Positions 2,215 through 51,185 of a stretch of 64,000 nucleotides of DNA are shown piece after piece. The notes under the pieces were generated by a model. The model was not told the origin of the DNA, searched no databases, and was given only the letters and a program-made list of their open reading frames with translations. Source of the DNA: a virus; the UHGV virus genome UHGV-1366123; one strand, given 5' to 3'. Both the position numbers and the translations under genes were made by a program. Numbering within the stretch: position 1 is the stretch's first letter; every line of letters begins with the position of its first letter.

Positions 2215-2655
2215 ATGGGATTTTTAAAGGCATTGAAGGATTTCGTGAACAAGAGAGGTGTTGTGAACACGAAAAGATCGTATGTTCACACAGATGATCT
2301 TCGTCTCAATCCTTCTTCTGAGCACCAAATATCAGAGGTCACAAAGTATGACATTGTACCTCATAACATGGTCGTGATAGCCACTCATGGAACTGGCTAC
2401 TTTGTACGTAGTGAAGATTGTCACACATACAAGGAAACAAACACGACGTGCTATGACTTCATACTTGAGAATCAATATGATGGATCGTTTGTGGATATCG
2501 TCATAAACTACGAAAGTGATGGAAATGGAGAAGGGAAGATCTGTAACATTTCCATGGCGTACGAATATGAAAACGACTCATCAATCGAAAACGTATCGAA
2601 AGATGAAGCGATAAAGTTTATGGCTTCATTCCTACAAAGAACTCTGCTATTATGA
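2215..2655 (+). CDS. hypothetical protein
   Basis: ORF only; its stop overlaps the first TATGACA iteron. Confidence 0.4.
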   Translation: MGFLKALKDFVNKRGVVNTKRSYVHTDDLRLNPSSEHQISEVTKYDIVPHNMVVIATHGTGYFVRSEDCHTYKETNTTCYDFILENQYDGSFVDIVINYESDGNGEGKICNISMAYEYENDSSIENVSKDEAIKFMASFLQRTLLL

Positions 2656-2835
2656 CAGAGTATGACACGAACGGATATGACAGACATATGACAAAGATGA
2701 CAGACGTATGACAAAGATGACAGACGTATGACAATTTTGTCATGACAACGATAATTTGGCACGATTTTTGTTATAATTATTATGAAAGATCGATCACTCG
2801 GATCAATCAACTTCAACCCAACATAAACAACAACA
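2651..2835 (+). promoter_or_regulatory. Iteron-plus-promoter cassette, copy A: about nine TGACA/TATGACA repeats at roughly 10-bp spacing, a TTGTCATGACAA palindrome, then a sigma70-like promoter (TTGGCA, ~16 nt, TATTAT)
   Basis: Direct reading; about 130 bp nearly identical to 49478-49641. Confidence 0.6.
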
Positions 2836-3516
2836 ATGACTATGACAACAACGGCAACCATACAAGACAAACTCGACAAGAACGTAGAGTTTGTTTGTTC
2901 ATTGTACAAGGCACGATTCGAAAAGTCGAAGGCTGTACAAGACGAATCGTTATACCACGTAACGTACACGATCACCTGTGAAGATTCCCACACTATCATC
3001 TTCCACGCAAACCTCTTTCCGAAAATGTTCGGGATGGTCATCAATGATCTACTGAATAATAATGAATCTTCAATGATCGTGGAGACACTTGAAAACGAAG
3101 ATGACTACGCAGAAAAAGTCGTGTCGACGCTTTCGGGTCTCATGTCTTACAAGAAATCAGAAGATGAAGAGGATCATTCTTCTGCAGACATGTACGACCT
3201 CGTAGGTTTTGCGGTTGGTGCAACAAAGAACGCCACGTGGGAACACAAATACGGAAAAGACGATATCAAGAAAACCTCATATGATCACTTCATCATCAAT
3301 ATCAACTATGAGGTGACAATGACTATCACACTTGAATATTGGGCAGATGGTCGTCCGTACGTTTCCGAAGTCGATATCCTCACGTTCACCGTACGTACTC
3401 TCAGTGGGACTTATGAGAAGAAGACACTCAACACTACGATATCGGACGCTATGCTTGAATCTGTCGATTTCATCAATCTTGCCAACAGGTTCTCGGGTGG
3501 TAGAATGATAAAATAG
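2836..3516 (+). CDS. hypothetical protein (downstream of iteron-promoter cassette A)
   Basis: ORF begins directly after the conserved leader; no motif recognised. Confidence 0.5.
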   Translation: MTMTTTATIQDKLDKNVEFVCSLYKARFEKSKAVQDESLYHVTYTITCEDSHTIIFHANLFPKMFGMVINDLLNNNESSMIVETLENEDDYAEKVVSTLSGLMSYKKSEDEEDHSSADMYDLVGFAVGATKNATWEHKYGKDDIKKTSYDHFIININYEVTMTITLEYWADGRPYVSEVDILTFTVRTLSGTYEKKTLNTTISDAMLESVDFINLANRFSGGRMIK

Positions 3517-3569
3517 AAACCTCCGTCTCCGTCGAGATCGACATTGACGTTTTTAAATAACACAAGCAA

Positions 3570-3613
3570 GTGAAACCTCGTGATAACAATTATCACGAGG
3601 TTTCACTTTTTTC
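3570..3613 (+). terminator. Rho-independent terminator (17-bp perfect stem GTGAAACCTCGTGATAA/TTATCACGAGGTTTCAC followed by TTTTTT)
   Basis: seen in sequence. Confidence 0.8.
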
Positions 3614-3673
3614 GAAAATATCAATATCAATATCGATCATCGATCATAATCATCATTATCAACATCCATCAAT

Positions 3674-4306
3674 ATGTTAGAGGTAGATTTAGCAAAGCTG
3701 GTAGTCTCTCATTTCTCCAAAGACTGTGAAGTGTATCAAGAAGTGAAAGCTTGTTCTTCACGTGTCATTGATATCGTGGTTCGTAGGAAATCGGGACTTA
3801 TGGCAATAGAAACCAAAGTGACGTTGAATATGAAACTTTGGGAACAGGCATTCAAGAACAAGAAGTGGTGTAATTACTCTTTCATCGCAATTCCCGAGAA
3901 CATCTATAGGAAATCTCGACGAAAGATGATCTCTGGTATATGCAGAGGTCTGAACATTGGTATCATTGTTGTAGATTTTGATGGAAATGTAAGCATTCAG
4001 TACAACCCTGCAGAAGAAATCCCCACACAAACCTTAAAGCTGTACGACGAACAGAAGTCGTTCGCTCTTGCAGGAAGTGGCGGTGTTCCATACTTTACAC
4101 CATTTAAGAAGACCGTCTCCGAGATCAAGAAGTATCTCGAAAAGCATGGGAAGTCAGAACTGGTAACCGTGATCAAGTCTATTGATCATCACTACAAAAC
4201 AGAGCAATCTGCAATACAGTCGATTCGAAATTATGCTTCCAAAGGTGTTTTAAAAGGTATTGTCTCGTCGGAAGACGGTAGGTATTTAGAGCTTTCCCAA
4301 CCTTAA
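3674..4306 (+). CDS. PD-(D/E)xK-fold nuclease-like protein
   Basis: Motif ...VIDIVV...(x13)...AIETKV fits the D-(x)n-E-x-K restriction-endonuclease-like core; C-terminal helical region. Confidence 0.45.
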   Translation: MLEVDLAKLVVSHFSKDCEVYQEVKACSSRVIDIVVRRKSGLMAIETKVTLNMKLWEQAFKNKKWCNYSFIAIPENIYRKSRRKMISGICRGLNIGIIVVDFDGNVSIQYNPAEEIPTQTLKLYDEQKSFALAGSGGVPYFTPFKKTVSEIKKYLEKHGKSELVTVIKSIDHHYKTEQSAIQSIRNYASKGVLKGIVSSEDGRYLELSQP

Positions 4307-4315
4307 ATAAGCAAA
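4304..4315 (+). promoter_or_regulatory. Putative late promoter motif TAAATAAGCAAA
   Basis: Member of a recurring 12-mer 20-30 nt upstream of structural-gene start codons. Confidence 0.5.
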
Positions 4316-4336: not shown

Positions 4337-6292
4337 ATGAGTAACAATAAAAATGTTGTAATCTTTGAGAACCATAGCGTTCCAATGAATCGTGTAAATG
4401 AATCGTTGGAAACCGCAAATGGGGTCAAAGATTACGTCTTTGAGGGTGTCTGTGCTACCTTTAATGGGAAAAACGAAAACGCAAGATTCTACGATAGAGA
4501 CGAGTATCTTCGTCATGTTGAATACCTTCAGAAGGAAATAGAACAGAACTCTCTGGCAGGATCTCTTGATCACCCAGATGGTGATGAAGAGGACGAAACG
4601 AAGGACATCTTCACCCCTAAAATGAAGGATCTGTCCCACCTCATCACAAAGCTTTGGTACAAGCCAGAGACTGATGAAGTCTGGATCAGAATCAAGCTTC
4701 TTGATACTGAATGGGGTAAGGATGCTAAGGCTTGTGTTGATGCTGGTATGCCACTGTTCATTAGCTCAAGATCATCTGGTTTCATTGACAAAGATGGGCG
4801 AGTATGGCTTGCACAAATTCACACATACGATATCGTCTACAGACCTGGGTTTGGTAACGCTAAACTTTCTCCAGTCCTCGAATCATTCGATGGAAAGAGC
4901 ACATATCTCAGCGTCTACTCACGCCAGAAGGAAGTAGACAGCACTGAATCTGAAAATACTAATATGGAAAAAAAGACTTATAAACTAAGCGAACTCACAA
5001 AGGAAGATGTTCTCTCGCTTCTGTTCAATCCTTCGGTGAAGGGAGCTTATGATTTCACGAGTGATGTGATCGAAAAACTCGACGAATTCTTCGATTATCC
5101 AAAGTTTATCGATTACTTCAATGAAAACGATCCAATGCTTTCTGACGCAATCGTGAACTACTTCATGGATTGTGGAAGATACGTTTATGATGATGGTACT
5201 TCTTGTGAAAATATCGCCGACTTCATAAAGATCGAAGTTGGTCGTGCATGTGACGACTATTTCGCAGAAATCAAGCAGACGTTCAAGGACAACTTCGGGG
5301 ATTTTGTTGAAGAAGGTGATGGAAAGGTAGACATCGATCGTTATGCTCGCATCATCGAAGAAAGCAAGAAATCAAAGAGAAATGTTCTGCGCAAGATCCA
5401 GTCGGTGAACGAATGCGAATCTGTGAAGTTGGTAGTTTCTGATTTCTGCAATGATCCTTCTTACGGATATGAAGATAAGTTCGAAGTCGCCAGAGAGTTC
5501 TTCGTCAAGTATCCCGAATATGGCGTAGTTGTCGATGATTGTTCTATGGAAGATGTTGTTCTTATCGCTTGTGATATGAAGAACGACTGCATCTATGACG
5601 AGATCGAGAACTCTGAAGTCAGAACCAAGAACGAAATCGCAGATGTCAAGCGTATTGTCAACAAGCTTTATGCTCAGATCAACCAAGACAGAGCAGAATA
5701 TAAGCAGACGATAAACTCACTCGTTCGAAATGTAAACCAAGTCCTCGAAGAGTACAAGGCAGATATCGAAAGTGCATTCATCACGATTGATGAAATCCGT
5801 GACGATGTTTACAACATAATCTCATGGATCGAATCAAACAACAGTGCACTTGACAAGTCAGAGGAAGTTGCACAGATCTCCAAGAAGCTGGATGATGCTA
5901 CCCAGAGCTTTAGTCAGAAGATTGGTGAAATCGAAGCATCACAGGATGCGGTAATGTCTCACGTAGACAATATCGAAAGTGATGTTTCCCTTATTGCCGA
6001 ATCTGCAAACAGAACGAAGCAGATGGTGAAGGAATCTGCAACGGCACGAAAGATTGAAGATGCGACAAGCATTGGTTCAAGAATCAACAACGTCATCGAG
6101 ACGATCAAGGCACAAACACCCGCTTTCCGTGTGTTTGAATCTGACGGTTCTCTCTACGTTCCTAACAGATTTGCAAAGAGTTATAACTCGCTCGACGAAG
6201 ACCAGAAGACTTTCGTCAAGTCTGTTTTTGAAACAAAGAATCCGAGATCTAAATCGGAATTCTTCTCCATTTGGGATTCTCTCGGTCTTTAA
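4337..6292 (+). CDS. Prohead core protease (T4 gp21-like) fused to an acidic coiled-coil scaffold-like C-terminal region
   Basis: N-terminal region with LDHPDG resembling the gp21 GHADHP active-site histidine block; long acidic/coiled-coil C-terminus; immediately upstream of the major capsid gene. Confidence 0.55.
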   Translation: MSNNKNVVIFENHSVPMNRVNESLETANGVKDYVFEGVCATFNGKNENARFYDRDEYLRHVEYLQKEIEQNSLAGSLDHPDGDEEDETKDIFTPKMKDLSHLITKLWYKPETDEVWIRIKLLDTEWGKDAKACVDAGMPLFISSRSSGFIDKDGRVWLAQIHTYDIVYRPGFGNAKLSPVLESFDGKSTYLSVYSRQKEVDSTESENTNMEKKTYKLSELTKEDVLSLLFNPSVKGAYDFTSDVIEKLDEFFDYPKFIDYFNENDPMLSDAIVNYFMDCGRYVYDDGTSCENIADFIKIEVGRACDDYFAEIKQTFKDNFGDFVEEGDGKVDIDRYARIIEESKKSKRNVLRKIQSVNECESVKLVVSDFCNDPSYGYEDKFEVAREFFVKYPEYGVVVDDCSMEDVVLIACDMKNDCIYDEIENSEVRTKNEIADVKRIVNKLYAQINQDRAEYKQTINSLVRNVNQVLEEYKADIESAFITIDEIRDDVYNIISWIESNNSALDKSEEVAQISKKLDDATQSFSQKIGEIEASQDAVMSHVDNIESDVSLIAESANRTKQMVKESATARKIEDATSIGSRINNVIETIKAQTPAFRVFESDGSLYVPNRFAKSYNSLDEDQKTFVKSVFETKNPRSKSEFFSIWDSLGL

Positions 6293-6312: not shown

Positions 6313-6324
6313 TAAATAACGAAA
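6313..6324 (+). promoter_or_regulatory. Putative late promoter motif TAAATAACGAAA (upstream of major capsid gene)
   Basis: recurring 12-mer. Confidence 0.55.
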
Positions 6325-11607: not shown

Positions 11608-11705
11608 GTCTCCGAACTCAAGGAAGGTACTTTCCTTGCACTCTGATGGTATTGGTGGTACTTACATAGCATCGAAGGCAAGAAAGCCCAAGGAAAAGGC
11701 AAAGA

Positions 11706-11750
11706 GAAAGCCCAACAACTTCTATCAAGTTGTTGGGCTTTCTCGTTATT
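11706..11750. terminator. Bidirectional terminator hairpin between convergent genes (14-bp stem)
   Basis: GAAAGCCCAACAAC/GTTGTTGGGCTTTC. Confidence 0.6.
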
Positions 11751-11780
11751 AATCAATGATTATTGGTTGATGGATGGTTT

Positions 11781-13604: not shown

Positions 13605-13616
13605 TTTCGTTATTTA
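13605..13616 (-). promoter_or_regulatory. Putative late promoter TAAATAACGAAA (minus strand, drives WYL-like gene)
   Basis: recurring 12-mer, 16 nt upstream of ATG. Confidence 0.5.
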
Positions 13617-13650: not shown

Positions 13651-13662
13651 TAAATAACGAAA
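13651..13662 (+). promoter_or_regulatory. Putative late promoter TAAATAACGAAA (divergent partner, drives 13672 gene)
   Basis: recurring 12-mer 9 nt upstream of ATG. Confidence 0.5.
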
Positions 13663-16883: not shown

Positions 16884-17360
16884 ATGCTTCAAAATCCTAA
16901 TCCGAATAACGTCAGAGGTTATAAACAAGGTTACTACATTCCAATCAATAAGGACAAGTTTGTTGGTCATTTGAATAAAGAAGGTGTTCCGTACAGATCA
17001 TCTTTGGAACTCAAGTTCATGAGACTTATTGATTCGAATCCGAATGTAGAAAAGTGGACATACGAACACCCCGACACAAAGATCTCATATTTCGATCCAA
17101 TGATGCAAAAACAGAGGACTTATTACCCAGATTTTTGGATGCAGATGAGAGTGAAGGGAGAACTTAAAACGTTCCTCATAGAAGTAAAACCCTACTCTCA
17201 AACCCAGATTCCGAAGAAATCTACAAGGAAATCGAAATCGACATATAGTAGAGAACTACAGACAAATCTGAATGTTGAAGTAAAGAGAAGATCTGCAGAA
17301 AAGTTCTGTGCAGAGAGAGGTTGGAAATATCTCTTTGTGACAGAGAAGTTCTTCAAGTGA
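16884..17360 (+). CDS. Head completion protein (T4 gp4-like, nuclease-like fold)
   Basis: SSLELKFMRLIDSNPNVEKW ... YYPDF ... LIEVKP ... AEKFCAERGW aligns block-for-block with T4 gp4. Confidence 0.65.
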   Translation: MLQNPNPNNVRGYKQGYYIPINKDKFVGHLNKEGVPYRSSLELKFMRLIDSNPNVEKWTYEHPDTKISYFDPMMQKQRTYYPDFWMQMRVKGELKTFLIEVKPYSQTQIPKKSTRKSKSTYSRELQTNLNVEVKRRSAEKFCAERGWKYLFVTEKFFK

Positions 17361-17386
17361 AGGATACCTCTTCTGATTAAAGAGAG

Positions 17387-17470
17387 GTACTTTCCTTGAG
17401 CTTGGAGGTACTTGGAGGTACTTTCACCCCACCGATAATTCTCGAATGCAAGGAAAGTACCTCTCTTTAA
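17387..17470. repeat. MITE-like hairpin element, 22-bp perfect TIRs TTAAAGAGAGGTACTTTCCTTG / CAAGGAAAGTACCTCTCTTTAA
   Basis: seen in sequence; family recurs at 10 or more loci. Confidence 0.7.
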
Positions 17471-17527
17471 TTCGACAAACCAGAATAACTTCGAAGGTTG
17501 ATCTAAAGACAATCCCGATATACAGAA

Positions 17528-17563: not shown

Positions 17564-17708
17564 CAACAACAAAAAGTGGTATCACATACGATGTTGTCCC
17601 TCATTGATTCGAACAAAGACTAACAGAGCCAAGGTCTGTTGTGCTACCATTACACCAAAGGACAATTCGAATGTCCCTCCGCCGTCTACTACGTTCAAGG
17701 GACTGATG

Positions 17709-17783
17709 GGTGATGGATGGGACTTGAACCCACAACCAATAGAACCACAACCTATTGCTCTAACCAATTTGAGCTACCATCAC
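17709..17783 (-). tRNA. tRNA-His (anticodon GTG)
   Basis: Hand fold: acceptor GTGATGG/CCATCAC, D stem GCTC/GAGC, anticodon stem ATAGG/TCTAT, loop TTGTGGT, T arm GTGGG-TTCAAGT-CCCAT. Confidence 0.7.
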
Positions 17784-17871
17784 AGACGTAGTGAGAGGTT
17801 TCGCTCCTCTGAATATCTTCATCAAGAAGCACTACGTTTGATAAAAAGGTGGCGAGTTGTCCATACTCTTC

Positions 17872-17944
17872 TCAGTCTGGTAGGATTCGAACCTACATCA
17901 TCTAAGAACCACCTTATAGGAATTTCCGATTATTCTACAGACTG
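17872..17944 (-). tRNA. tRNA-like sequence with canonical acceptor, D and T arms but a non-canonical anticodon arm (probable pseudo-tRNA)
   Basis: T arm GTAGG-TTCGAAT-CCTAC, acceptor CAGTCTG/CAGACTG, D stem GAAT/ATTC; no 5-bp stem with 7-nt loop can be drawn in the anticodon region. Confidence 0.4.
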
Positions 17945-18310
17945 AACAACAAACGATAATGAAGATTCAAAATGCTGAATATCTGCAAATCGGAAACTAT
18001 GATTGATTCATCTTTTAGACAGCTATGGACAATACCGAATGGGGTATCAAACCAGTAACTTGAAGATTTTTATAGATTGCTGTAAGTCCATAATCTAAAA
18101 GACGTTTTTTCTATCTTTTTCGTCGAAATCTTTACTGCAGACGTTATCTATGAGCCAATTATGAAGATTCTGTTTGCTGTGTGTCTACAGATCCCGACAT
18201 TAAGAATTCTTTAAAAGAACGCTTTGTGAATGATGACTTCCCAGTGGACTACGTAGTTTTAGGAGCAATTGCATAGTAATTTGCTGTGAATCCAATAGAT
18301 CATCATTTTG

Positions 18311-18395
18311 AGGAAGAACAGGGATTCGAACCCTGGGAACCTTGCAGTTCAACGGTTTTCAAGACCGTCGCAATCGACCACTCTGCCACTCTTCC
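18311..18395 (-). tRNA. tRNA-Ser (anticodon TGA), class II with long variable arm
   Basis: Hand fold: acceptor GGAAGAG/TTCTTCC, anticodon stem ACGGT/ACCGT, loop CTTGAAA, long variable arm, T arm AGGG-TTCGAAT-CCCT. Confidence 0.7.
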
Positions 18396-20419: not shown

Positions 20420-20595
20420 GTAGAAGCCTTATCGTATGTGAAAAATCTGCGTTTTATCCAGTTCTCACTTCTTGTTTCAACCTGCCATTACTTTTTAGGA
20501 ACACGAGGTTCGGTCATCCATAAGAGGGCAGTCCGCAAGCGTAAATTCGGTGCTACGAACACCTACTCGATTTTTTATATGTTAGACAGTTTGAA
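20420..20595 (-). ncRNA. Putative TnpB omega-RNA (reRNA) scaffold region at and beyond the 3' end of tnpB
   Basis: Inferred from IS200/IS605 biology; locally GC-rich, structured segment (GGAACACGAGGTTCGGTCATCC...GGTGCTACGAACACC) immediately 3' of the tnpB stop. Confidence 0.35.
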
Positions 20596-21724
20596 GTTTT
20601 CTTTGTCCTTCAATGAGAATGTTCTTCGAAGCGTTTATATCTCTGTCGTGATATTCACCACATTCGGGACAAGTCCAAAACCTATCACCGAGTTTCAAGT
20701 CTTTCTTCTTGTAACCACAACATAAACAAGTCTTTGAACTTGGATAGAACCTATTGATAAGAACAACTCGCTTATCATTCATAAGAGCCTTATATTGCAA
20801 TATCGACTTGAACCGATAAAATCCAGACTCTTGGATAGCATTCGCAAGATAACGATTTCCAAGCATCCCTTTAATATTCAAGTCTTCCATGAACACCACG
20901 TCGTATGATTTGAGGATCTCGTTCACAACTGAGTGGATGTAGTTCTCTTTCTTGTTCGTTATATTCGCAATCACTTTTGCAAGTCTGATTCTCTGTTTGT
21001 TCCTATTGTTTGAACCTTTGACCTTTCTGGATAGTTGACGATGAAGTCTTGTGATCTTCTTTTCCTCCTTCTTGAAGAAGTGTTTGTTTTCAAACACAAA
21101 TCCATCAGAGGTTATGACGAAATCTTTCACACCAAGATCAATACCGACTTGCTTGTTGGTCTTTTCAAACTTTACAAATTCTGCTTCGGGAATGTCGATA
21201 AGGATTGATAAGAAGAAATTCCCACTCTTGGTTTTCGAGAGAGTTGCACTTCTTATGTTATCTTTGTACTTCTGTAAGCGTTTGTGATACAAGTCAGAAC
21301 AACGGAATCTGAGTTTTTGAAGAGAAGTGATTAGTGTTATATGTTTCGTTTCGAAAGTGTTCCTCTTTGAAATAGCATTACGAGGAAACAATGCTGATTG
21401 TTTGTCTTTCTTTGATTTAAACTTTGGAAAGCCTTTATGATGATTGAAGAAGTTTTGATAAGCACCGACCATCTGTTTGATTGCTTGGTTCATCACCTTT
21501 GTGTTCTGTTCTCTCAACCAAGCATATTGTTCATCTTTCAACAATGATCCGTGGAAATATTTCGATAGATCGCTTTCGCTTAGGTTTGTCTTGTCCGTTT
21601 CATAAGCCTTTTGTTTTCTATCGAGCATGTGATTATAGACAAAACGATAAGCACCAAGAACCTTGTTGAGTTCTTGTTCCTGCGCTTTGTTTGGATATAA
21701 CCTTATTTTAATCGCTCTAAACAT
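20582..21724 (-). mobile_element. tnpB: TnpB (IS200/IS605 OrfB-family RNA-guided nuclease), intact, no tnpA present
   Basis: N-terminal IRLYPNKAQ..YRFVYNH; RuvC-I GIDLGVKD, RuvC-II FMEDLNIKGM, zinc finger CLCCG...CPECG, RuvC-III DRDINASKNIL; all catalytic residues present. Confidence 0.8.
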
Positions 21725-22279: not shown

Positions 22280-22481
22280 CCTCATAGATTCCCAGTTTTA
22301 ACGGAAACTGTGGCGGACTATGAACCCCTGCGTGAAACCGCACTTGAACTTCAACCAAGATCTGTACGTACTTTAACCCAAGTGATAGGTTTTGAACCCT
22401 AATTGAAGCAGAACTATTCCCATTCTGAGAGGGGACGTTATCAACTTAAAAATTGGTGAAACGTCCTAAAGTCAACATCGG

Positions 22482-22554
22482 TACGCCATGAAGGATTTGA
22501 ACCTTCGACCGCCAAGGTATAAGCTTGGAACTCTAACCACTGAGTTAATGGCGC
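22482..22554 (-). tRNA. tRNA-Ile (anticodon TAT, decodes AUA)
   Basis: Acceptor GCGCCAT/ATGGCGT, D arm ACTC-AGTGGTT-AGAGT, anticodon stem CCAAG/CTTGG, loop CTTATAC, T arm GAAGG-TTCAAAT-CCTTC. Confidence 0.65.
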
Positions 22555-22589
22555 ATTTTCATCTTTCTATTTTCTTATTGATGGATCTT

Positions 22590-23135
22590 TTAGAACGTTT
22601 TACTGTATCCAAAAACGTCGGAAAGATCTCTCAGAGAATCATTCATAAGTATCTCGTGGACATTGTTGTAAACCGTACCAAGAAGATTCGATCCTCTCCA
22701 TTTCGATTTATCAACTATACGAATATCAGTTTCAGAAAGTCCACATCCCCAGATTTTGTCATAAGGACTGGCTTCTACAAACTCATAACCTTCATTAATT
22801 AGTTGTGTGTAGTGATCTCTGATTTTCTTTGAAGATCTTAGTTTCATCAGTACCACAAAGAGCATCACATCATATCTGACAGATGACCAACGACCATCAT
22901 TGTAGTTTCGAACAAGTCTTCCAAGCTCTTTACAAAAACGTGGGTTATCAGAATTCTTGAGGATCTGCATTGCGATATCTTCGTCTCCGAAGTACTTTGC
23001 TTTCAAGAACATGAACAATGATTCACCGCAATGGAAAACAAGACCATTATAGTTGATCTCGGATTTATAGAAGTTGCTGTAAAAATCCGAACCAGTGAAG
23101 AAAGTCACCAATTTATGATCTTTGAAAATCTTCAT
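22590..23135 (-). CDS. NADAR-domain protein (YbiA/DUF1768 family; ADP-ribose N-glycosidase-like)
   Basis: FFTGSDFYSNFY ... GESLFMFLKAKYF ... RWSSVRYDVMLFVVLMKLRS ... LINEGYEFVEASPYDKIWGCG matches YbiA blocks (F-SNF, SEHYFQAQKF, W..V...VM...L..KF, LL.T....LVE.S..D..WG.G). Confidence 0.75.
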   Translation of the reverse strand: MKIFKDHKLVTFFTGSDFYSNFYKSEINYNGLVFHCGESLFMFLKAKYFGDEDIAMQILKNSDNPRFCKELGRLVRNYNDGRWSSVRYDVMLFVVLMKLRSSKKIRDHYTQLINEGYEFVEASPYDKIWGCGLSETDIRIVDKSKWRGSNLLGTVYNNVHEILMNDSLRDLSDVFGYSKTF

Positions 23136-23157
23136 CGTGTCTCTTGTTCTTTTTTTG

Positions 23158-23230
23158 TGATTCCAGTGGGGCTTGAACCCACAACCCCTGCATTAAAAGT
23201 GCAGTGCTCTACCTGTTGAGCTATGAAATC
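23158..23230 (-). tRNA. tRNA-Lys (anticodon TTT)
   Basis: Acceptor GATTTCA/TGGAATC, D arm GCTC-AACAGGTA-GAGC, anticodon stem CTGCA/TGCAG, loop CTTTTAA, T arm GTGGG-TTCAAGC-CCCAC. Confidence 0.7.
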
Positions 23231-23520: not shown

Positions 23521-23573
23521 GCATATTGAAGAAATGTGTTAAAGTGTATTATCAACTGATACGCTTTAAAGGA

Positions 23574-23657
23574 AGGTATTTTCCTTGCGCTCTGAGAGGT
23601 TCAAGAATATGAAAATAGCGGAGAATAGATCAGAGCGCAAGGAAAGTACCAAGGAAA
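23574..23657. repeat. MITE-like hairpin element copy (TIRs GGAAGGTATTTTCCTTGCGCTCTGA / TCAGAGCGCAAGGAAAGTACC; loop carries GAAAATAGCGGAG core)
   Basis: seen in sequence. Confidence 0.7.
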
Positions 23658-24060
23658 GCCAAGGAGACATATCCTTTGGAATGATGGGTTTCTGTCGGGA
23701 GACAATGACTATTTCCAAGGATTATGAGAAGACTATGACAATAATGGAGGACAATGGAAGATTATCAATGACTTGAAAGACAATGGTTGGAAAATGACTG
23801 ATTTTTAGAGGATTATCAGAGGACTATCTTTTGGAAAATGGTTGGTGATTATCGAATTAAAGGAAGGTACTTTCCTTGTCCTCGAAGCTATTCGAGAATA
23901 TGAAAATAGCGGAGACCATACTCGAGTTCAAGGAAAGTACCAAGGAAATCCAAGGAGACATATTTTCGAGGATTATGGTCTCTGTGGCTAATGGGAGGAA
24001 TATCTTGGAAAGAGAATATCAGTTTAAAGGTGTTAAAAGGTGTTAATCTGTTCGGGGATT
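23640..24060. repeat. Left iteron array: GACAATG / TGACAAT / GACTATGACAAT repeats (reverse complement of the right arrays)
   Basis: seen in sequence. Confidence 0.7.
23867..23941. repeat. MITE-like hairpin element copy
   Basis: TTAAAGGAAGGTACTTTCCTTG ... CAAGGAAAGTACC; loop GAGAATATGAAAATAGCGGAGACCATACTCGAG. Confidence 0.7.
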
Positions 24061-25454: not shown

Positions 25455-25695
25455 TGAATCAGAACTATTGTCTCTTCATAGTCTTCTGATAATACTTCAA
25501 TAATCGTCCATTGTCTTTCAATAATCAGCCATTGTCTTCCGATTATGGTCGATTGTCTTTGATGATTGTTGATTGTCTTTGATGATTGTTGATTGTCTTC
25601 CATAATCAGTCATTATCTTGGATAGTCTTCCATAATCCTTCGAAATGGTCTATTGTCTTCGGATGATGACCCATAGTCCCCGAGAATACCTCTCC
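25455..25695. repeat. Right iteron array 3, including GATGATTGTTGATTGTCTTT x2
   Basis: seen in sequence. Confidence 0.75.
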
Positions 25696-25699
25696 TTGG

Positions 25700-25792
25700 C
25701 TCTCCTTGGTACTTTCCTTGCATTCTGATACACTTTCCGCTATTTTCATATTCTCGGGCTATTTCGAGGACAAGGAAAGTACCTCTCTTTAA
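25700..25792. repeat. MITE-like hairpin element copy
   Basis: CCTTGGTACTTTCCTTGCATTCTGA ... CAAGGAAAGTACCTCTCTTTAA. Confidence 0.65.
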
Positions 25793-27673: not shown

Positions 27674-28399
27674 ATGAAGATTCTCATAATTGGTGACGTT
27701 CACGAAAGCGACTTCTGGATAGACCACGTTCAAAAAAACAAAGATCGTGTCGAGAAGATCGTTTTCATGGGGGACTATTTCGATTCATTCAAGAAAGTCT
27801 CTGCGCAGGTGGCTTTCGAGAACTTTAAGAAGATCCTCGCTCTTCGTCAGACTTTAGGAGAAGAGAAGGTCATCCTCCTTATTGGCAACCACGACTTCCA
27901 TTATACAAAGTTCTGTATGGGAAGATATAGCGGATTTTCAACCACGACTTTTGTCCTTGTAGGGAGCTTCCTTGATGAACTGGTTGATAATGGAACTTTG
28001 GTTCTCTCCTATGAATCTGGCGGTTATCTTTTCTCTCATGCTGGGGTCTCCGAGACTTGGTTTAAGGAGATGACTGGTGAAGATTCAAGTGTCGAAGATA
28101 TCAACCCATTGTTCAAGCAATCTCCAAGAATCGTCGAATTCCGAAATGATGAACGAACCACGTCGCAATATGGCGACAACGAGCATCAGTCTCCGATTTG
28201 GATTCGACCAAATGCTCTCTCAGAGAATCCTTACGGAGATTATCATCAAATAGTTGGTCATACTGCTTTCGATTTCTCGAATATCGATTCTAATCGTGTG
28301 ACTATGGACAATGGTAAGAACCTCTATTTCACAGATTCTAATCAACACGAAGCATTCATCTTGGATACCGAGACTGGAGAGTGTGAAATCCTAAGATAA
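27674..28399 (+). CDS. Calcineurin-like metallophosphoesterase (Ser/Thr phosphatase-like)
   Basis: GDVHE, GDYFD, GNHD and GHTAF metal-binding motifs in canonical order. Confidence 0.7.
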   Translation: MKILIIGDVHESDFWIDHVQKNKDRVEKIVFMGDYFDSFKKVSAQVAFENFKKILALRQTLGEEKVILLIGNHDFHYTKFCMGRYSGFSTTTFVLVGSFLDELVDNGTLVLSYESGGYLFSHAGVSETWFKEMTGEDSSVEDINPLFKQSPRIVEFRNDERTTSQYGDNEHQSPIWIRPNALSENPYGDYHQIVGHTAFDFSNIDSNRVTMDNGKNLYFTDSNQHEAFILDTETGECEILR

Positions 28400-28417: not shown

Positions 28418-28470
28418 GATTGGGCGTAACAACTTTCTATTTTTGTTGTTACGCCCAATCTTTATTTTTA
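28418..28470. terminator. Bidirectional terminator (16-bp stem GATTGGGCGTAACAAC/GTTGTTACGCCCAATC plus T-tract)
   Basis: seen in sequence between convergent genes. Confidence 0.75.
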
Positions 28471-29064
28471 ATCGATAAACTCGTAATTGTCGGGATTGTT
28501 CACAATGTAGCAACCTACATCAATGTAGTAAAACTCACCACCACTTTTTATAACGTTTGATTCTCGAACGTCATCTATTAAGTAATAACCATCAAAGTAG
28601 ATGTTTCGAGAATAACCAGTTTCTTTGTTTTTACATGGTCTAAAACCTCTCTTGCGAAGATCTCTTCTTATTTCTTCTTCTGTAGCATCAACACCTTCGA
28701 TGAACTTCTGAGTGGTCATAAAGTAACTGCTGTCGTTCTCGATTATGCAGAAAGCTATCGGTGTTATCTTACTCTCGGGGAAAACTTTGTTATAAGTTTT
28801 AAGAGATCTGCACCAGAAATCAGCGTTTACTTCATAGTCGCAAGATACACCAAGAAGTCTTGTGGATGTGCTTTTGACAACCTTGTCTCCGTCGATATGC
28901 TTCCAAACGAAACTTTCACCACCTGTGTTTAATGGTTGCATAATGTCACCATCAATCACCGAAGCGAGTATTTCGTCATAGATATCAACATCATAGCCAC
29001 AATCAATAACCCTTGTGAAATCTGATCTCCAACTTTCAAAGATTGGTTTTATTAGGCGGTTCAT
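28468..29064 (-). CDS. hypothetical protein, possibly an atypical kinase-like fold
   Basis: YYLIDDVRESNVI ... YYIDVG resembles a catalytic-loop and DFG-like arrangement; weak. Confidence 0.3.
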   Translation of the reverse strand: MNRLIKPIFESWRSDFTRVIDCGYDVDIYDEILASVIDGDIMQPLNTGGESFVWKHIDGDKVVKSTSTRLLGVSCDYEVNADFWCRSLKTYNKVFPESKITPIAFCIIENDSSYFMTTQKFIEGVDATEEEIRRDLRKRGFRPCKNKETGYSRNIYFDGYYLIDDVRESNVIKSGGEFYYIDVGCYIVNNPDNYEFID

Positions 29065-29127: not shown

Positions 29128-29139
29128 TAAATAAGCAAA
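29128..29139 (+). promoter_or_regulatory. Putative late promoter TAAATAAGCAAA
   Basis: recurring 12-mer. Confidence 0.5.
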
Positions 29140-38383: not shown

Positions 38384-38390
38384 ACGACTT

Positions 38391-38483
38391 CACGGAAGGC
38401 ACTTTCCTTGCGCTCTGAAGATTTCGGTGTTGTTCTCATAGCTCTTTGATATACAGAGCGCAAGGAAAGCACCTCGTCTTTAT
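38391..38483. repeat. MITE-like hairpin element copy abutting the truncated terminase ORF
   Basis: CACGGAAGGCACTTTCCTTGCGCTCTGA ... CAGAGCGCAAGGAAAGCACCTCGTCTTTAT. Confidence 0.7.
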
Positions 38484-40371: not shown

Positions 40372-40383
40372 TAAATAACGAAA
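40372..40383 (+). promoter_or_regulatory. Putative late promoter TAAATAACGAAA
   Basis: recurring 12-mer 13 nt upstream of ATG 40397. Confidence 0.5.
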
Positions 40384-43904: not shown

Positions 43905-43931
43905 CATTCGACTTTATTCTAATATTACTAA

Positions 43932-43983
43932 CAAGAGAGCCACATCTGGAAGTGTCCCAGATGTGGCTCTCTTGCTTTTTCTT
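43932..43983 (+). terminator. Strong terminator (18-bp stem CAAGAGAGCCACATCTGG/CCAGATGTGGCTCTCTTG followed by CTTTTTCTT)
   Basis: seen in sequence. Confidence 0.8.
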
Positions 43984-43984
43984 A

Positions 43985-44046
43985 TACTTTCCGCTATGAA
44001 ACTATTCTTCGATATCTTCGAGTGCAAGGAAAGTACCTCTCTTTAA
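43985..44046. repeat. MITE-like hairpin element, right half only (loop core TTCCGCTAT plus CAAGGAAAGTACCTCTCTTTAA)
   Basis: seen in sequence. Confidence 0.55.
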
Positions 44047-48712: not shown

Positions 48713-49447
48713 TTAATCAAAGAAGTCCATAAAGTCACCAGTTCTCTTTTCTTGTAGTTCTTGTAGGACATCCTTTACCAGTTCCTTTCCTTCATTCTTT
48801 ATTGATGCGTGGTCGATCTTATAACCAGCGATCAGTTTCTGATCTGTAAATCCAAAGATCGATGCAATCGATACCTTACATTGACCACAAACGTATCTGA
48901 AGAAAAGTTCGTGTTCAAACATTGCTTCATCGGGGACTTTCACTGAGACATGAGCTACACAACTTGCTTTTGGATCTACACCAATGACAGTGAGCATGTT
49001 TGATATTGATGAATAGTCGTATTGAACGTCACTTATGCAGAACTTTTCGATCTGTTGATAAAAGTAAGATGATGCGATTGCCGTGAGATATGCTTCAGAA
49101 TCGCCATTTATCGCCATTCTTAAGTTATAATTCGTTCCTCTGAAATCTCCTCCCATCAGATAAGAATTCCCCATAAAGCTGTTCTGACGGGTTTGACGGA
49201 ATCTCATCACGGCATGAACATTCTTTGGGAAAGCAATCTGTCTCTTTAATCTGAACAAATCAGTGTTGAATGCGCTTGGTGAAACCACCAAGTACTGATA
49301 TTCATGAGAATCGTCATCGTGATCATAGAAATAGGCGAGTGATTTGTCTATGATCTGGTTGATTCTCGTTATGCTCGGACTTGCTGGGATAACACCACCC
49401 TCTGTGAGTTCGTCTGTTATATGCTTTATAAACGCTTCTCTTGTCAT
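48713..49447 (-). CDS. hypothetical protein
   Basis: start placed at internal Met (MTREAFIKH) because the annotated N-terminal 34 codons overlap the TGACA iteron array. Confidence 0.45.
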   Translation of the reverse strand: MTREAFIKHITDELTEGGVIPASPSITRINQIIDKSLAYFYDHDDDSHEYQYLVVSPSAFNTDLFRLKRQIAFPKNVHAVMRFRQTRQNSFMGNSYLMGGDFRGTNYNLRMAINGDSEAYLTAIASSYFYQQIEKFCISDVQYDYSSISNMLTVIGVDPKASCVAHVSVKVPDEAMFEHELFFRYVCGQCKVSIASIFGFTDQKLIAGYKIDHASIKNEGKELVKDVLQELQEKRTGDFMDFFD

Positions 49448-49477: not shown

Positions 49478-49641
49478 TATGACAGCGTATATGACACGAG
49501 TGACATGACAGAATATGACAAAGATGACAGAATATGACAACTTTGTCATGACAGTGATGATTTGGCACGATTTTTGTTATAATTATTATGAAAGATCACT
49601 CGGATCAATCAATCAACCCAACATAAACAACAATTCCAATC
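49478..49641 (+). promoter_or_regulatory. Iteron-plus-promoter cassette, copy B (about eight TATGACA/ATGACAG repeats, TTTGTCATGACA palindrome, sigma70-like TTGGCA-N16-TATTAT, conserved leader)
   Basis: about 130 bp at roughly 90% identity to 2687-2830. Confidence 0.6.
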
Positions 49642-50508
49642 ATGGCAACTCAGATCCTCAACCTCAAGCCCTGCTCCGAACTTCTCGTTCATAACTCATG
49701 CACTAAGCGTGGGCAAGTCCACTCAATCTACAACAATGGAGTCAAGTTCCTCGTAGATGAGAACGCAAACCATACCGAAGAAGACGGATACGTTCAGTTC
49801 ATAGCTTGGTCAGACGACTTCATCTCGTTCAAGCCACGTCAGGCAAACGAGATATATAACGGTCATCAATCTGTGATGACAATCAAGCAGATGGAATTCA
49901 TCTGCAACACGCTCAACAAATTTGATGATGAAGGTGTGGAAATCATCGAGATATCGATCAACTTCGACGAAGATCACCGAAAGAATGAAGATGATCTCAT
50001 CTACGCCCCTAACATGAAAACGTTCGTTCGCTATAGTCTTGATGGTGAAGAATACGATTGTAGTTTCATCAGCGCATATGACAACGACGAAGTTGTCCCT
50101 GCGGTTAGTGATGAACAAGAACAAGAAAAAGAAAAGATAGTTCTTATTAACGAGAAGGTGTCTCGTAGTCGTCGTCGCAAGATGCTCAAGACCAACAGCA
50201 TCAAGTATGGTCTTGCGAGCTATGAGTTCGTAGAAGAACTCACGGAATCCAACGAACCATGTCTCCAGTTCCTCACCGAGAATGAGTGGATCGTTTACAA
50301 GGCAATAGTCAGAGCAATGGAACAACAAATGCGTGATGTCATCCGTGCATCTGACGTTGTCCAAGGTGATCACGCTATCGCTGGGACTATTTCCACCCTA
50401 AATATGAAGGGGTTCGTTCGCTGTCGTGTCGGAGGTGATAAGCATGGGAAAGGATTCATCTCTGCAGTGACAACAAAGAACTATAACGATTTTAGTCTTA
50501 ATCGATGA
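49642..50508 (+). CDS. hypothetical protein (downstream of iteron-promoter cassette B)
   Basis: ORF begins right after the conserved leader. Confidence 0.5.
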   Translation: MATQILNLKPCSELLVHNSCTKRGQVHSIYNNGVKFLVDENANHTEEDGYVQFIAWSDDFISFKPRQANEIYNGHQSVMTIKQMEFICNTLNKFDDEGVEIIEISINFDEDHRKNEDDLIYAPNMKTFVRYSLDGEEYDCSFISAYDNDEVVPAVSDEQEQEKEKIVLINEKVSRSRRRKMLKTNSIKYGLASYEFVEELTESNEPCLQFLTENEWIVYKAIVRAMEQQMRDVIRASDVVQGDHAIAGTISTLNMKGFVRCRVGGDKHGKGFISAVTTKNYNDFSLNR

Positions 50509-51185
50509 GGAAATTTTTAGCATCTCTACTTCTCTACATTTTAGAATCTTTAGAAAGGGTTCTGAAGTTCAGAAATGTCTCCAAAGATGAAACTTTGGAG
50601 ACATTTCTCGTATCTTCCAATTTTCGTGTTCTCTCACACGAATGTAAAAATGACAAATCGGGATGCATGAACAGCAGACTTCACCCACATAACACAAGAC
50701 AGCTTCAGAAAGTTCATAGATGCCAAATGGAGCATCTTTATGAACTCTGGTTTGAAGATGGTAGAAAGACCGTGATATCCAAAGATCATCCACTAATCAC
50801 GGAAACTTACGGAATCTTCACTCTTGAGAAGTTTGGGATATCTTCTTGTTTGTCTTTCTTCAGAAGGAAGATTGATGTTTCTCACAGACACATTTACATC
50901 ATAAACTTAGAAGGTGGTGTTTCAAAGCTCATAAGTGTGGAACGTTCCTACTTCCCACATATGACTTATGATGTCTCGGTGTCGTGTGACAGGCTTTACT
51001 TCTCCGATGGACTTCTGAATCACAATTGTGTAACTTCCGACACAAAGGTGGAAGTAAAAATCAAAGATGAAGAAAGCCACGGATCAGTGCCAATCTTTGA
51101 ACTTTTCTATAGGAATAAAAGGACGAAGACATTTCTCGATCGTTTGATATACTTTCTGTTCCGTCAGAAACAGAAATTTAAATAA
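50505..51185 (+). CDS. Hint/intein-domain-containing protein (mini-intein-like blocks B, F and G)
   Basis: GRKTVISKDHPLITETYG (block B T-x-x-H) and MTYDVSVSCDRLYFSDGLLNHN|C (blocks F/G with terminal His-Asn followed by Cys). Confidence 0.45.
   Translation: MRKFLASLLLYILESLERVLKFRNVSKDETLETFLVSSNFRVLSHECKNDKSGCMNSRLHPHNTRQLQKVHRCQMEHLYELWFEDGRKTVISKDHPLITETYGIFTLEKFGISSCLSFFRRKIDVSHRHIYIINLEGGVSKLISVERSYFPHMTYDVSVSCDRLYFSDGLLNHNCVTSDTKVEVKIKDEESHGSVPIFELFYRNKRTKTFLDRLIYFLFRQKQKFK

What the first reader, a model, noticed from the sequence alone, without database searches (positions are those of the whole stretch)
2651..2835. Duplicated ~130-bp regulatory cassette (TATGACA iteron array, TTGTCATGACAA palindrome, sigma70-like promoter, conserved leader) at two loci 47 kb apart
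The two copies are 2651-2835 and 49478-49641, and their promoter-proximal ~130 bp are about 90% identical. Each has 8-9 TGACA-containing repeats at roughly helical spacing, ending in a perfect 12-bp palindrome just upstream of TTGGCA-N16-TATTAT. The same 5' leader runs into two unrelated downstream ORFs, 2836 and 49642. This looks like a shared operator array controlling two early genes, bound by an unknown repressor or activator. Copy B overlaps the annotated N-terminus of the divergent minus-strand gene.
Basis: seen in the sequence. Interest (0 to 1): 0.65.

Follow-up and report, generated by a model that had tools for sequence, protein, structure and literature searches.

The report
Duplicated sigma-54 promoter with TGACA array
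A ~150-kb phage of a probable Bacteroidota host carries two copies of a host-style sigma-54 (-24/-12) promoter preceded by a phased array of TGACA protein-binding half-sites, which suggests the phage has plugged a few genes into a host stress-type control circuit instead of an ordinary sigma-70 operator.

Summary
The repeat is real. Copies at 2651-2835 and 49478-49641 share a 36-nt identical core. Their proximal ~130 bp are about 87-91% identical. They hold 9 and 8 TGACA half-sites about 10 bp apart, plus one inverted TGTCA.

TATTAT varies in related phages. The invariant block is TTGGCACrATyTTTGT. This matches the sigma-54 -24/-12 promoter class mapped in Flavobacterium psychrophilum at 22.2 bits, the top two hits in the window.

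The predicted start is near 2784 and 49590. That places the TTGTCATGACAA palindrome about -41.5, with the array reaching about -130.

The same palindrome-plus-core module sits upstream of a csp gene in a Flavobacteriaceae genome and an hsp20 gene in a metagenome contig. Sigma-54 is reported to drive chaperone genes in Bacteroidota.

The phage's general late promoter is a different motif, TAAATAA[CG][CG]AAA.

Copy B is probably ancestral. Copy A is missing in a more distant relative, and one relative has a third copy.

The binding protein is unknown. A host regulator is favoured. The copy-B product, a weak winged-helix candidate, is an alternative. Nothing shows that the driven genes are early.

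The parts
2651..2733 (+). Copy A distal array: eight (T)ATGACA half-sites in direct orientation, spaced 9-15 bp, including a tandem 20-bp unit TATGACAAAGATGACAGACG x2. It starts on the stop codon of the upstream gene 2215-2655.
2737..2748 (.). Copy A palindrome TTGTCATGACAA (TGTCA at 2738, TGACA at 2743). Its centre lies about 41.5 nt upstream of the predicted start. The same 12-mer is found 6 nt upstream of sigma-54-type cores at a bacterial csp gene (L035) and an hsp20 gene (L053).
2756..2771 (+). Copy A core promoter TTGGCACGATTTTTGT, a sigma-54 class -24 (GG 2758-2759) / -12 (GT 2770-2771) element.
   Evidence: PWM 22.2 bits, joint top hit of the window. It is 15/16 identical to the mutagenesis-tested remF sigma-54 promoter of F. 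psychrophilum. It is invariant in relatives.
2784..2835 (+). Copy A predicted 5' leader of about 52 nt, with the start inferred at 2783-2785. It is CA-rich, has no Shine-Dalgarno sequence and is essentially unstructured, apart from a 4-bp 5' hairpin GATC(2792-2795)/GATC(2801-2804).
   Evidence: Start offset of 13-15 nt taken from the mapped F. psychrophilum promoters. Folding z-scores are not significant. One compensatory change is seen in the hairpin, GATC/GATC to GACC/GGTC, in L001/L002. No Rfam hit.
2836..3516 (+). Gene driven by copy A: a 226-aa protein of unknown function, confined to this phage clade. It is followed by a 19-bp hairpin plus T-run (3568-3615), so it is probably monocistronic.
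49478..49539 (+). Copy B distal array: seven ATGACA/GTGACA half-sites in direct orientation.
49543..49554 (.). Copy B palindrome TTGTCATGACAG (10-bp perfect core TGTCATGACA).
49562..49577 (+). Copy B core promoter TTGGCACGATTTTTGT (sigma-54 class -24/-12).
49590..49641 (+). Copy B predicted leader, with the start inferred at 49589-49591. Hairpin GATC 49594-49597 / GATC 49603-49606.
49642..50508 (+). First gene driven by copy B: a 288-aa protein with a conserved N-terminal domain, a variable acidic linker and a highly conserved C-terminal domain. The C-terminal domain gives weak winged-helix matches (TrmB E=0.0086, Penicillinase_R E=0.11). It is a candidate DNA-binding protein.
   Evidence: The AlphaFold model is unusable, pLDDT 36.
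50505..51185 (+). Second gene of the copy B unit (226 aa, unknown, with a sub-threshold Hint/intein-like hit). The next gene, 51204, has its own late-type promoter at 51179-51190.
48713..49447 (-). Divergent neighbour of copy B: a T4 gp13-like neck protein of 244 aa from the conserved ATG at 49447. Its own upstream motif CATAAACGAAA resembles the late promoter. It is not part of the cassette.

Best explanation
Each cassette is a sigma-54-class (-24/-12) promoter of the kind used by Bacteroidota hosts, with the core TTGGCACGATTTTTGT.

- Start site (inferred): about 13-15 nt after the -12 G, at about 2784 and 49590.
- Upstream element: just upstream lies an enhancer/operator built from one short half-site, (A)TGACA(A). 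It forms an inverted pair, TTGTCA|TGACAA, whose centre is about -41.5. A further 6-9 copies in helical phase (period about 9.7 bp) reach to about -130.
- Mechanism (inferred): a TGACA-binding protein occupies one face of the DNA and controls open-complex formation by the sigma-54 holoenzyme. This protein is most likely a host regulator of a sigma-54 stress regulon, either the enhancer-binding activator or a repressor. It is less likely to be a phage protein.
- Transcript: it begins with a 4-bp hairpin and an unstructured, CA-rich leader without a Shine-Dalgarno sequence. This suits Bacteroidota-style translation. It encodes one gene at locus A and two at locus B.
- Evolution: copy B is probably ancestral. 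Copy A arose by copying the array, core, leader and first codons into the stop/start overlap ATGACA of the neighbouring genes. The arrays expand by 10- and 20-bp tandem duplication.

Shown: the anatomy, the conservation, the promoter-class match and the host parallels. Inferred: sigma-54 dependence, the start site, who binds, and whether binding activates or represses.
For: Promoter class:
- A PWM built from 15 TSS-mapped sigma-54 (SM4) promoters of F. psychrophilum (PMC9723704 Table S2) scores both cores at 22.2 bits. This is the top two of the window, above every training sequence (12.7-19.6) and above the best of 20 shuffles (19.5).
- The -12 'TTGT', in place of the textbook TTGC, is normal in that mapped set. 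The last base is T in 5, A in 4, C in 5 and G in 1.

Host context:
- The major capsid protein is closest to phages of Flavobacterium, Tenacibaculum, Chryseobacterium and Prevotella.
- Genes lack Shine-Dalgarno sequences.

Host parallels:
- The identical 12-bp palindrome lies 6 nt upstream of a sigma-54-type core at a csp gene in a Flavobacteriaceae MAG (L035) and at an HSP20 gene (L053).
- Another csp promoter has TGACAA-N8-TTGGCACACTTCTTGC (L067).
- The literature reports sigma-54-type promoters at groES/EL, dnaK, grpE, lon, htpG, clpB and hsp20 in Flavobacteriia and Bacteroidia, and lists csp among sigma-54-enriched genes without naming a phylum (PMC9723704; PMC12316311).

Half-sites as binding sites:
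- The pentamers and their phase to the core are conserved (13, 18, 27, 37, 46 nt), while spacers and copy number vary.

Not the general late promoter:
- TAAATAA[CG][CG]AAA occurs 10 times against 0.06 expected, in front of the protease, capsid and other genes.

Duplication history:
- L028 lacks copy A and has the sequence ctactATGACAACA at that junction. L029, from the same sample, keeps copy B.
Against: - No transcription data exist, so the start site and sigma-54 dependence are inferred from sequence only.
- The host is not identified.
- No enhancer-binding protein (Sigma54_activat domain) is encoded in the window proteins scanned.
- Classical enhancers lie at least 70 bp upstream and are inverted repeats. 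Here the best-conserved site is at -41.5 and most sites are direct repeats. This looks as much like a repressor operator as an enhancer.
- The core overlaps a near-match to the Bacteroidota sigma-A -7 box (nAnnTTTG), and F. psychrophilum csp itself is sigma-A driven.
- The host parallels rest on two exact cases and one partial case. About 4 chance hits were expected in the genome scan (my own estimate, not a tool output).
- L053 may itself be a phage contig.
- The most distant syntenic relative (L031) has no cassette at all.
Confidence: 0.6

Rival explanations
1. Phage autoregulation. The copy-B product (gene 49642, with a putative C-terminal winged helix) binds the TGACA half-sites. It controls its own promoter and that of gene 2836. 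This would be a small phage-encoded regulon, and it is compatible with a sigma-54 core.
For: - The gene sits directly downstream of the ancestral copy B in every relative that has the cassette.
- Its C-terminal ~80 residues are nearly invariant.
- They give two independent weak winged-helix hits over the same residues (TrmB E=0.0086, Penicillinase_R E=0.11).
- The protein is confined to this clade, as is the array.
Against: - The hits are below Pfam thresholds, and the AlphaFold model failed (pLDDT 36).
- The distant homologue P0054 keeps the putative recognition helix (IAGTISTL), yet its locus L031 has no TGACA cluster, no palindrome and no sigma-54 core.
- The same palindrome occurs in a bacterial genome that has no such phage gene nearby (L035).
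Confidence: 0.25
2. An ordinary housekeeping-sigma promoter. This would be either the reader's TTGGCA-N16-TATTAT, an extended -10 TGTTATAAT, or the Bacteroidota sigma-A -7 box GATyTTTG. The TGACA array would act as a class II-type activator or repressor site.
For: - The consensus scan lists TTGGCA-16-TATTAT at 10/12.
- GATyTTTG/AATCTTTG matches nAnnTTTG, with its variable base at an 'n' position.
- Many Flavobacteriaceae csp promoters carry TATCTTTGC.
- F. psychrophilum csp is classed as sigma-A.
Against: - TATTAT is not conserved.
- E. coli-type -35/-10 hexamers are not what Bacteroidota sigma-A recognises (PMC9723704).
- The first T of TAnnTTTG is absent in all 18 instances, and no TTG lies 19-21 nt upstream.
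- None of these readings explains why TTGGCAC is invariant and sits exactly 10 nt from the TTG.
- TAnnTTTG is not enriched in the window: 31 found against 43 expected.
Confidence: 0.15
3. Iteron-type replication origins. The direct repeats would be iterons bound by monomers of an initiator, such as the winged-helix product of 49642. The inverted repeat would be the autorepression operator, as in iteron plasmids or the two SPP1 origins.
For: - The layout fits: direct repeats in helical phase, an inverted repeat of the same half-site at the promoter of an adjacent winged-helix-like gene, and only 2-3 copies per genome.
- The 20-bp units each hold two half-sites.
Against: - Relatives L029 and L030 keep only the palindrome plus 1-3 half-sites. 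L027 has the distal sites flipped.
- Half-site phase is fixed relative to the promoter core.
- No separate AT-rich unwinding element or DnaA boxes were noticed on reading the sequence. This was not formally scanned.
- GC skew follows gene orientation only.
- The identical palindrome-plus-core module precedes bacterial csp and hsp20 genes.
Confidence: 0.07

Closest known systems
Sigma-54 (RpoN) -24/-12 promoters of Flavobacteriia, motif SM4 of F. psychrophilum (remF, skp, groS, clpB and others; PMC9723704)
   Same: - The 16-nt register is identical: TTGGCAyrnnnnTTGn.
- The phage core is 15/16 identical to remF and shares TTGGCACGAT with skp.
- 'GT' at -13/-12 is as common as 'GC' in that set.
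- The flank downstream is AT-rich.
   Different: - It lies on a lytic-type phage genome.
- It is preceded by a dense array of short repeats that starts only 7 nt upstream of the -24 element.
- Dependence on RpoN and an activator is untested here.
Enhancer (UAS) arrays of sigma-54 promoters, for example the five NtrC sites of glnAp2 or the three NorR sites.
   Same: Multiple sites for one protein are spread over about 100 bp upstream of a -24/-12 promoter. This could nucleate an oligomer.
   Different: - Classical sites are 15-17-bp inverted repeats centred at least 70 bp upstream. Here a 5-6-bp half-site recurs every ~10 bp, mostly as direct repeats.
- The best-conserved site is at -41.5, a position more typical of repressors or class II activators.
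Heptad-repeat operators of the omega repressor (inc18 plasmids) and tandem met-boxes of MetJ. This comparison is recalled from general knowledge.
   Same: Arrays of 7-10 very short repeats, in direct or inverted orientation, lie upstream of several promoters. They are bound cooperatively by one small protein.
   Different: Those repeats are contiguous (7-8-bp period) and regulate sigma-70-family promoters. Here the period is about 9.7 bp and the core is sigma-54-type. No ribbon-helix-helix protein was identified.
Iteron plasmid origins with Rep autoregulation (pPS10, F, R6K) and the SPP1 oriL/oriR pair. This comparison is recalled from general knowledge.
   Same: Direct repeats combine with an inverted repeat of the same sequence at the promoter of an adjacent winged-helix-like gene. 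There are two loci per genome.
   Different: See the membership test. The repeats are dispensable in relatives. No unwinding element was noticed on reading. The same module occurs at bacterial stress genes.
T4-type late promoters (TATAAATA, recognised by gp55). The T4 details are recalled from general knowledge.
   Same: The phage has T4-like replication and morphogenesis genes. It also has its own short late motif, TAAATAA[CG][CG]AAA, 12-35 nt upstream of starts.
   Different: The cassette is a separate and much rarer promoter class. It is long and composite, and it resembles host promoters.

Membership tests
Sigma-54-dependent (-24/-12) promoter | GG and G(C/T) dinucleotides exactly one helical turn apart within TGGCAC-N5-TTGn | tested here: met
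   TTGGCACGATTTTTGT at 2756-2771 and 49562-49577. It is invariant in 18 related instances.
Sigma-54-dependent (-24/-12) promoter | Scores as a member against experimentally mapped promoters of a related host clade | tested here: met
   22.2 bits against a PWM of 15 F. psychrophilum SM4 promoters. These are the top two hits of 128,000 positions. The best of 20 shuffles scored 19.5.
Sigma-54-dependent (-24/-12) promoter | Transcription start 12-15 nt downstream of the -12 element, and dependence on rpoN | not testable with these tools
   This needs 5' end mapping and an rpoN mutant of the unidentified host.
Sigma-54-dependent (-24/-12) promoter | Upstream enhancer bound by an AAA+ enhancer-binding protein | tested here: inconclusive
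   A repeat array is present from about -41 to -130. The binder is unknown, and no Sigma54_activat domain was found in the window proteins scanned. About 85 kb of the genome lies outside the window.
   The hexamer reads TGTTAT, CGTTAT, TTCTAT or TATTGT in relatives.
Bacteroidota sigma-A promoter (-33 TTG / -7 TAnnTTTG) | TAnnTTTG at -12 to -5, usually with TTG 19-21 nt upstream | tested here: inconclusive
   GATyTTTG or AATCTTTG is present, but the first T is absent in 18/18 instances. No TTG lies at the right distance; the nearest TTTG is 23 nt away. The motif is not enriched in the window.
Iteron-type replication origin | At least three conserved direct repeats that are essential and retained across relatives | tested here: not met
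   L030 keeps one extra half-site and L029 keeps three. L027 has the distal sites inverted.
Iteron-type replication origin | Adjacent initiator gene with winged-helix DNA-binding domains | tested here: inconclusive
   Only sub-threshold winged-helix hits for the 49642 product. No Rep family hit, and the structure model failed.
Structured cis-regulatory RNA leader (riboswitch or attenuator) | Stable, conserved secondary structure or an Rfam match | tested here: not met
   No Rfam hit at E<=1. Folding z-scores run from -0.4 to -1.4. Only a 4-bp 5' hairpin is present, with one compensatory change.

The most novel reading that the evidence does not exclude
The phage has copied the operator/enhancer and sigma-54 promoter of its host's stress (chaperone, cold-shock, hsp20) regulon and multiplied the operator half-site up to ten-fold. 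This ties a few phage genes to the host stress response. On hundreds of replicating genomes, the arrays could also act as a decoy that titrates the host regulator and reprogrammes host chaperone expression during infection. Copy A sits next to the head-assembly genes. This would be sigma-54-based host takeover in Bacteroidota phages. The four sigma-54-type cores in the unrelated phage contig L060 hint that such use may be widespread.
Probability: 0.12. Interest if true: 0.8.

Novelty: new variant of a known kind. Interest (0 to 1): 0.55.

Why it matters
- Phage gene control through the host sigma-54 holoenzyme is rarely documented as far as I know, and two literature searches here found nothing comparable. 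Sigma-54 control of stress genes in Bacteroidota has only recently been recognised.
- The cassette gives a compact, testable system. It combines a consensus sigma-54 core, a 12-bp palindrome shared with bacterial csp and hsp20 promoters, and a natural series of half-site copy numbers (2 to 11) across related phages.
- It could identify the still uncharacterised regulator and operator of the Bacteroidota sigma-54 stress regulon.
- It could show how a phage wires genes into that regulon, or interferes with it.
- It also provides a strong, portable promoter/leader module for Bacteroidota genetics.
- If it proves to be only a duplicated promoter with a repressor site, it is a neat but ordinary example of promoter duplication.

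Tried and rejected
- Nucleotide search of the region against GenBank phages found no match.
- Pfam and PHROGs scans of the two driven proteins and their neighbours found no family.
- AlphaFold models were poor: the 49642 product at pLDDT 36 and the 2836 product at pLDDT 56. Foldseek against viral and PDB libraries returned only an orthologue and noise.
- A profile search of 1.84 billion representative proteins found only clade members, one distant homologue (P0054) and a spurious repeat protein.
- A PDB profile search found nothing.
- Divergent gene as regulator: rejected, because it is a gp13-like neck protein.
- Cassette as the general late promoter: rejected, because the late motif is TAAATAA[CG][CG]AAA.
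- Other apparent sigma-54 hits, TGGTACTTTCCTTGC at 23637, 25707 and 38397: rejected, because they are arms of a repeated hairpin element.
- The hit at 27739 lies inside a coding region.
- Riboswitch or structured leader: rejected.
- GC skew as an origin signal was uninformative.
- Additional single operator sites elsewhere in the window: none found.
- Of the genome-scan hits, L032, L033, L034 and L036 look coding or chance. Of the metagenome hits, L056 and L058 look like chance.
- A resemblance of the reverse-strand TGTCAT repeats to E. coli Pho boxes was considered from memory only and not pursued.
- Literature searches for phage sigma-54 promoters or a Bacteroidota heat-shock operator found nothing specific.

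Full report
**1. Observation**

The two regions read exactly as described.

- A 36-nt block, TTGGCACGATTTTTGTTATAATTATTATGAAAGATC, is identical at 2756-2791 and 49562-49597, with none expected by chance.
- The promoter-proximal ~129 nt share 117 identical positions.
- Copy A has nine TGACA on the + strand (2653-2743) and one TGTCA (2738).
- Copy B has eight TGACA (49480-49549) and one TGTCA (49544).
- Spacings are mostly 9-11 bp, and no other such cluster exists in the window.
- The 12-bp palindrome is perfect only in copy A. Copy B reads TTGTCATGACAG.

**2. Genomic setting**

The window is part of a ~150-kb T4-like phage with 40% GC.

- It encodes a clamp loader, UvsX, a DnaB-like helicase, an SbcCD-like nuclease, an NAD-dependent ligase, an S80 prohead protease, a major capsid protein and a baseplate hub-like protein.
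- The capsid protein is closest to phages of Flavobacterium (39.5%), Tenacibaculum, Chryseobacterium, Prevotella (Lak) and Sphingomonas PAU.
- Genes have no Shine-Dalgarno sequences.
- A Bacteroidota host is therefore likely, but it is not proven.
- A separate short motif, TAAATAA[CG][CG]AAA, occurs 10 times against 0.06 expected. It always lies 12-35 nt upstream of a start codon, including those of the protease, the capsid gene and genes 51204, 55271 and 59060. This is the phage's general late-type promoter, so the cassette is a different and rare class.
- Gene 2836 is followed by a 19-bp hairpin and a T-run (3568-3615), so copy A probably drives one gene.
- Copy B drives 49642 and the overlapping 50505 before the next late promoter.
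- The divergent gene at copy B is a T4 gp13-like neck protein. Its conserved start is at 49447, outside the array.

**3. Comparative evidence**

Related IMG/VR and ENA contigs carry orthologous cassettes at both loci.

- Across 18 instances the TGACA pentamers are kept. Their distances to the core are also kept at 13, 18, 27, 37 and 46 nt upstream of TTGGCAC, continuing with a period of about 9.7 bp.
- The spacers vary, and the copy number ranges from 2 to 11.
- Arrays grow by tandem duplication: TGACAGAGTA x4 in L022, and a 20-bp unit x2 in the window.
The invariant block is TTGGCACrATyTTTGTTATAA.
- More distant relatives, at 50-54% identity of the 49642 protein, keep only the palindrome TGTCATGACA, 1-3 further half-sites and the core (L029, L030). 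L027 has the distal sites inverted.
- The most distant syntenic relative (L031) has no cassette.
- At locus A, L028 comes from the same sample as L029, which retains copy B. L028 has no cassette. There the upstream stop overlaps the start, as ctactATGACAACA.
- In the window, TATGACA flanks the cassette on both sides (2651 and 2841). In the related phages (L003-L009 against L010-L015), copies A and B share the leader up to ATGGCAAC; the window's own copy A reads ATGACTATGACAAC at that point.
- Copy A is therefore most simply a secondary copy of B, inserted by microhomology. Deletion in the L028 lineage is not excluded.
- One relative (contig 111166) has a third, more divergent copy upstream of a 163-aa ORF that is not in this window. 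'Two per genome' is therefore a lower bound.

**4. Promoter class**

TGGCACG-N4-TTGT has the spacing of a sigma-54 promoter. The only departure from the textbook form is T instead of C at -12.

- The F. psychrophilum transcription-start map (PMC9723704) defines a sigma-54 motif, SM4. One member, remF, was validated by mutagenesis.
- Its Table S2 gives TTGGCACGATTTTAGT for remF, TTGGCACGATAGTTGA for skp, TTGGCATAGCTTTTGT and twelve others.
- In that set the base after the -12 G is T in 5, A in 4, C in 5 and G in 1.
- A PWM built from these 15 sequences scores both cassette cores at 22.2 bits. These are the two best positions in the window. They score above every training sequence, and above the best of 20 shuffles at 19.5.
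- In the mapped set the start lies 13-15 nt after the -12 G. This predicts starts at 2783-2785 and 49589-49591, inside the conserved TTATGAAAGA. The palindrome centre then falls at about -41.5.
- The sigma-A reading (nAnnTTTG, with a start at about 2775) cannot be excluded. It does not explain the invariant TTGGCAC, and the first T of the box is never present.

**5. Host parallels**

- A scan of 185,579 species genomes for TGTCATGACA-N7-10-TTGGCAC-N5-TTG gave five hits, against about four expected by chance on my own estimate. Four of the five were in Bacteroidota.
- Four of the five look coding or chance. One, L035, is intergenic, about 60 nt upstream of a csp gene in a Flavobacteriaceae MAG. 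It matches the phage beyond the pattern searched, as TTGTCATGACAA-N6-(AT)TTGGCACAAT..TTGTT.
- A metagenome scan with the 12-bp palindrome found the same module in front of an HSP20 gene (L053; Pfam E=2e-23). That contig may itself be phage-like.
- Other Flavobacteriaceae csp promoters are either sigma-A-only (TATCTTTGC) or sigma-54-type. Examples of the latter are TTGGCATTATCTTTGC and TTGGCACGCTTATTGA. One has TGACAA 8 nt upstream of the core.
- The literature reports sigma-54-type promoters at groES/EL, dnaK, grpE-dnaJ, lon, htpG, clpB and skp in F. psychrophilum. It reports enrichment at groEL/ES, ibpA (hsp20), grpE and dnaJK across Bacteroidota, and lists csp among sigma-54-enriched genes without naming a phylum.
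- The cassette therefore looks like a host stress-regulon promoter/operator whose half-site the phage has multiplied.
- A different phage contig (L060) has four sigma-54-type cores 27-38 nt upstream of start codons within 11.5 kb, without arrays. Sigma-54-type promoters may be common in Bacteroidota phages.

**6. Who binds the TGACA sites**

This is not resolved.

- No Sigma54_activat domain was found in the window proteins scanned.
- The 49642 product has a nearly invariant C-terminal domain with two weak winged-helix hits over the same residues. That makes it a candidate autoregulator.
- Against this, its distant homologue keeps the putative recognition helix while its locus lacks TGACA sites. 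The palindrome also exists in a bacterial genome (L035).
- Structure prediction failed for both driven proteins, so their functions remain unknown.
- The leader is unstructured and has no Rfam match. It carries only a 4-bp 5' hairpin, supported by one compensatory change.

**7. Verdict**

- The general idea of a shared operator array is supported.
- The sigma-70 promoter, the 'early gene' label and the overlap with the neighbouring gene are not supported.
- The best reading is a duplicated sigma-54-class promoter with a phased TGACA enhancer/operator array of host stress-regulon type. I put about 0.6 on the whole reading and about 0.75 on the promoter class alone.
- Rivals are a phage winged-helix autoregulator (0.25, not exclusive), a housekeeping-sigma promoter (0.15) and iteron origins (0.07).
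- It is a new variant of a known kind, of moderate-to-good interest (0.55).

Noticed in passing
window 4304-4315, 6313-6324, 13605-13616(-), 13651-13662, 29128-29139, 40372-40383, 45567-45578(-), 51179-51190, 55246-55257, 59032-59043: The motif TAAATAA[CG][CG]AAA occurs 10 times against 0.06 expected. It always lies 12-35 nt upstream of a start codon in the right orientation (protease, major capsid protein, large structural-type genes). It is probably this phage's T4-like late promoter. Looser variants lie upstream of 47691, 48713(-) and 39974(-).
   Followed up: partly
window ~23560-23660(-), ~25690-25790(+), ~38390-38480(+); partial copies in intergenic regions at 11608-11780, 17361-17480, 43905-44042, 53017-53215; also upstream of the third cassette in L059: A repeated element is built on GGTACTTTCCTTGC(GCTCTGA) and its complement GCAAGGAAAGTACC. 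It often forms a long inverted repeat with a ~35-nt loop, placed between genes. Its function is unknown. It mimics the sigma-54 consensus by chance.
   Followed up: partly
L060 (IMGVR_UViG_3300024269_000036, 121.7 kb): 1728(-), 3675(-), 4890(+), 9427(+): An unrelated phage contig has four strong sigma-54-type cores (TTGGCACGATATTTGT, TTGGCATAATTTTTGT, TTGGCACGGTATTTGT, GTGGCACGATATTTGT), each 27-38 nt upstream of an ATG and without TGACA arrays. Sigma-54-type promoters may be a regular promoter class in some Bacteroidota phages.
   Followed up: partly
L054 / L059 (contig IMGVR_UViG_3300045988_111166 = ERZ772966 NODE-4, 150,065 bp): A third cassette copy in a close relative. It has four TGACA, the palindrome TTGTCATGACAA, the variant core TTGGCATAATCTTTGTTATAAT and the hairpin GATC-TTCT-GATC. 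It drives a 163-aa ORF that has no counterpart in this window.
   Followed up: partly
window 17593-18395 and 22480-23230 (- strand): Six tRNA genes (Gln-TTG, His-GTG, one with an abnormal anticodon loop, Ser-TGA, Ile-TAT, Lys-TTT). They lie in a 9-kb region with few long ORFs.
   Followed up: no
window 20582-21724(-), 16884-17360(+): A phrog_506 'transposase' (E=7e-112, possibly TnpB-like) and a TnsA-like endonuclease-domain protein (PF08722, E=2e-14). These point to mobile elements inside the phage genome.
   Followed up: no
window 25560-25600: A tandem 20-nt repeat, tgatgattgttgattgtctt, x2, followed by related 'cttccataatc' repeats in the gene-poor region upstream of the hairpin element.
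   Followed up: no
window 4337-6292: The prohead protease homologue (Peptidase_S80 / phrog_207, matching residues ~3-241) is 651 aa long. It carries a ~400-residue C-terminal extension of unknown role, possibly a fused scaffold.
   Followed up: no
window 22590-23135(-), 28468-29064(-), 27674-28399(+): A NADAR-domain protein, a 'Kinase-PolyVal' Ser/Thr/Tyr kinase domain protein and a calcineurin-like phosphoesterase. These are possible host-takeover or anti-defence genes.
   Followed up: no
window 50505-51185 and 3674-4306: These are the second gene of the copy-B unit and the gene after the copy-A terminator. The first gives a sub-threshold Hint/intein-splicing hit (E=0.005). The second matches only phrog_12193 (unknown function); by eye its N-terminal half resembles a PD-(D/E)XK nuclease motif, which was not tested.
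   Followed up: no
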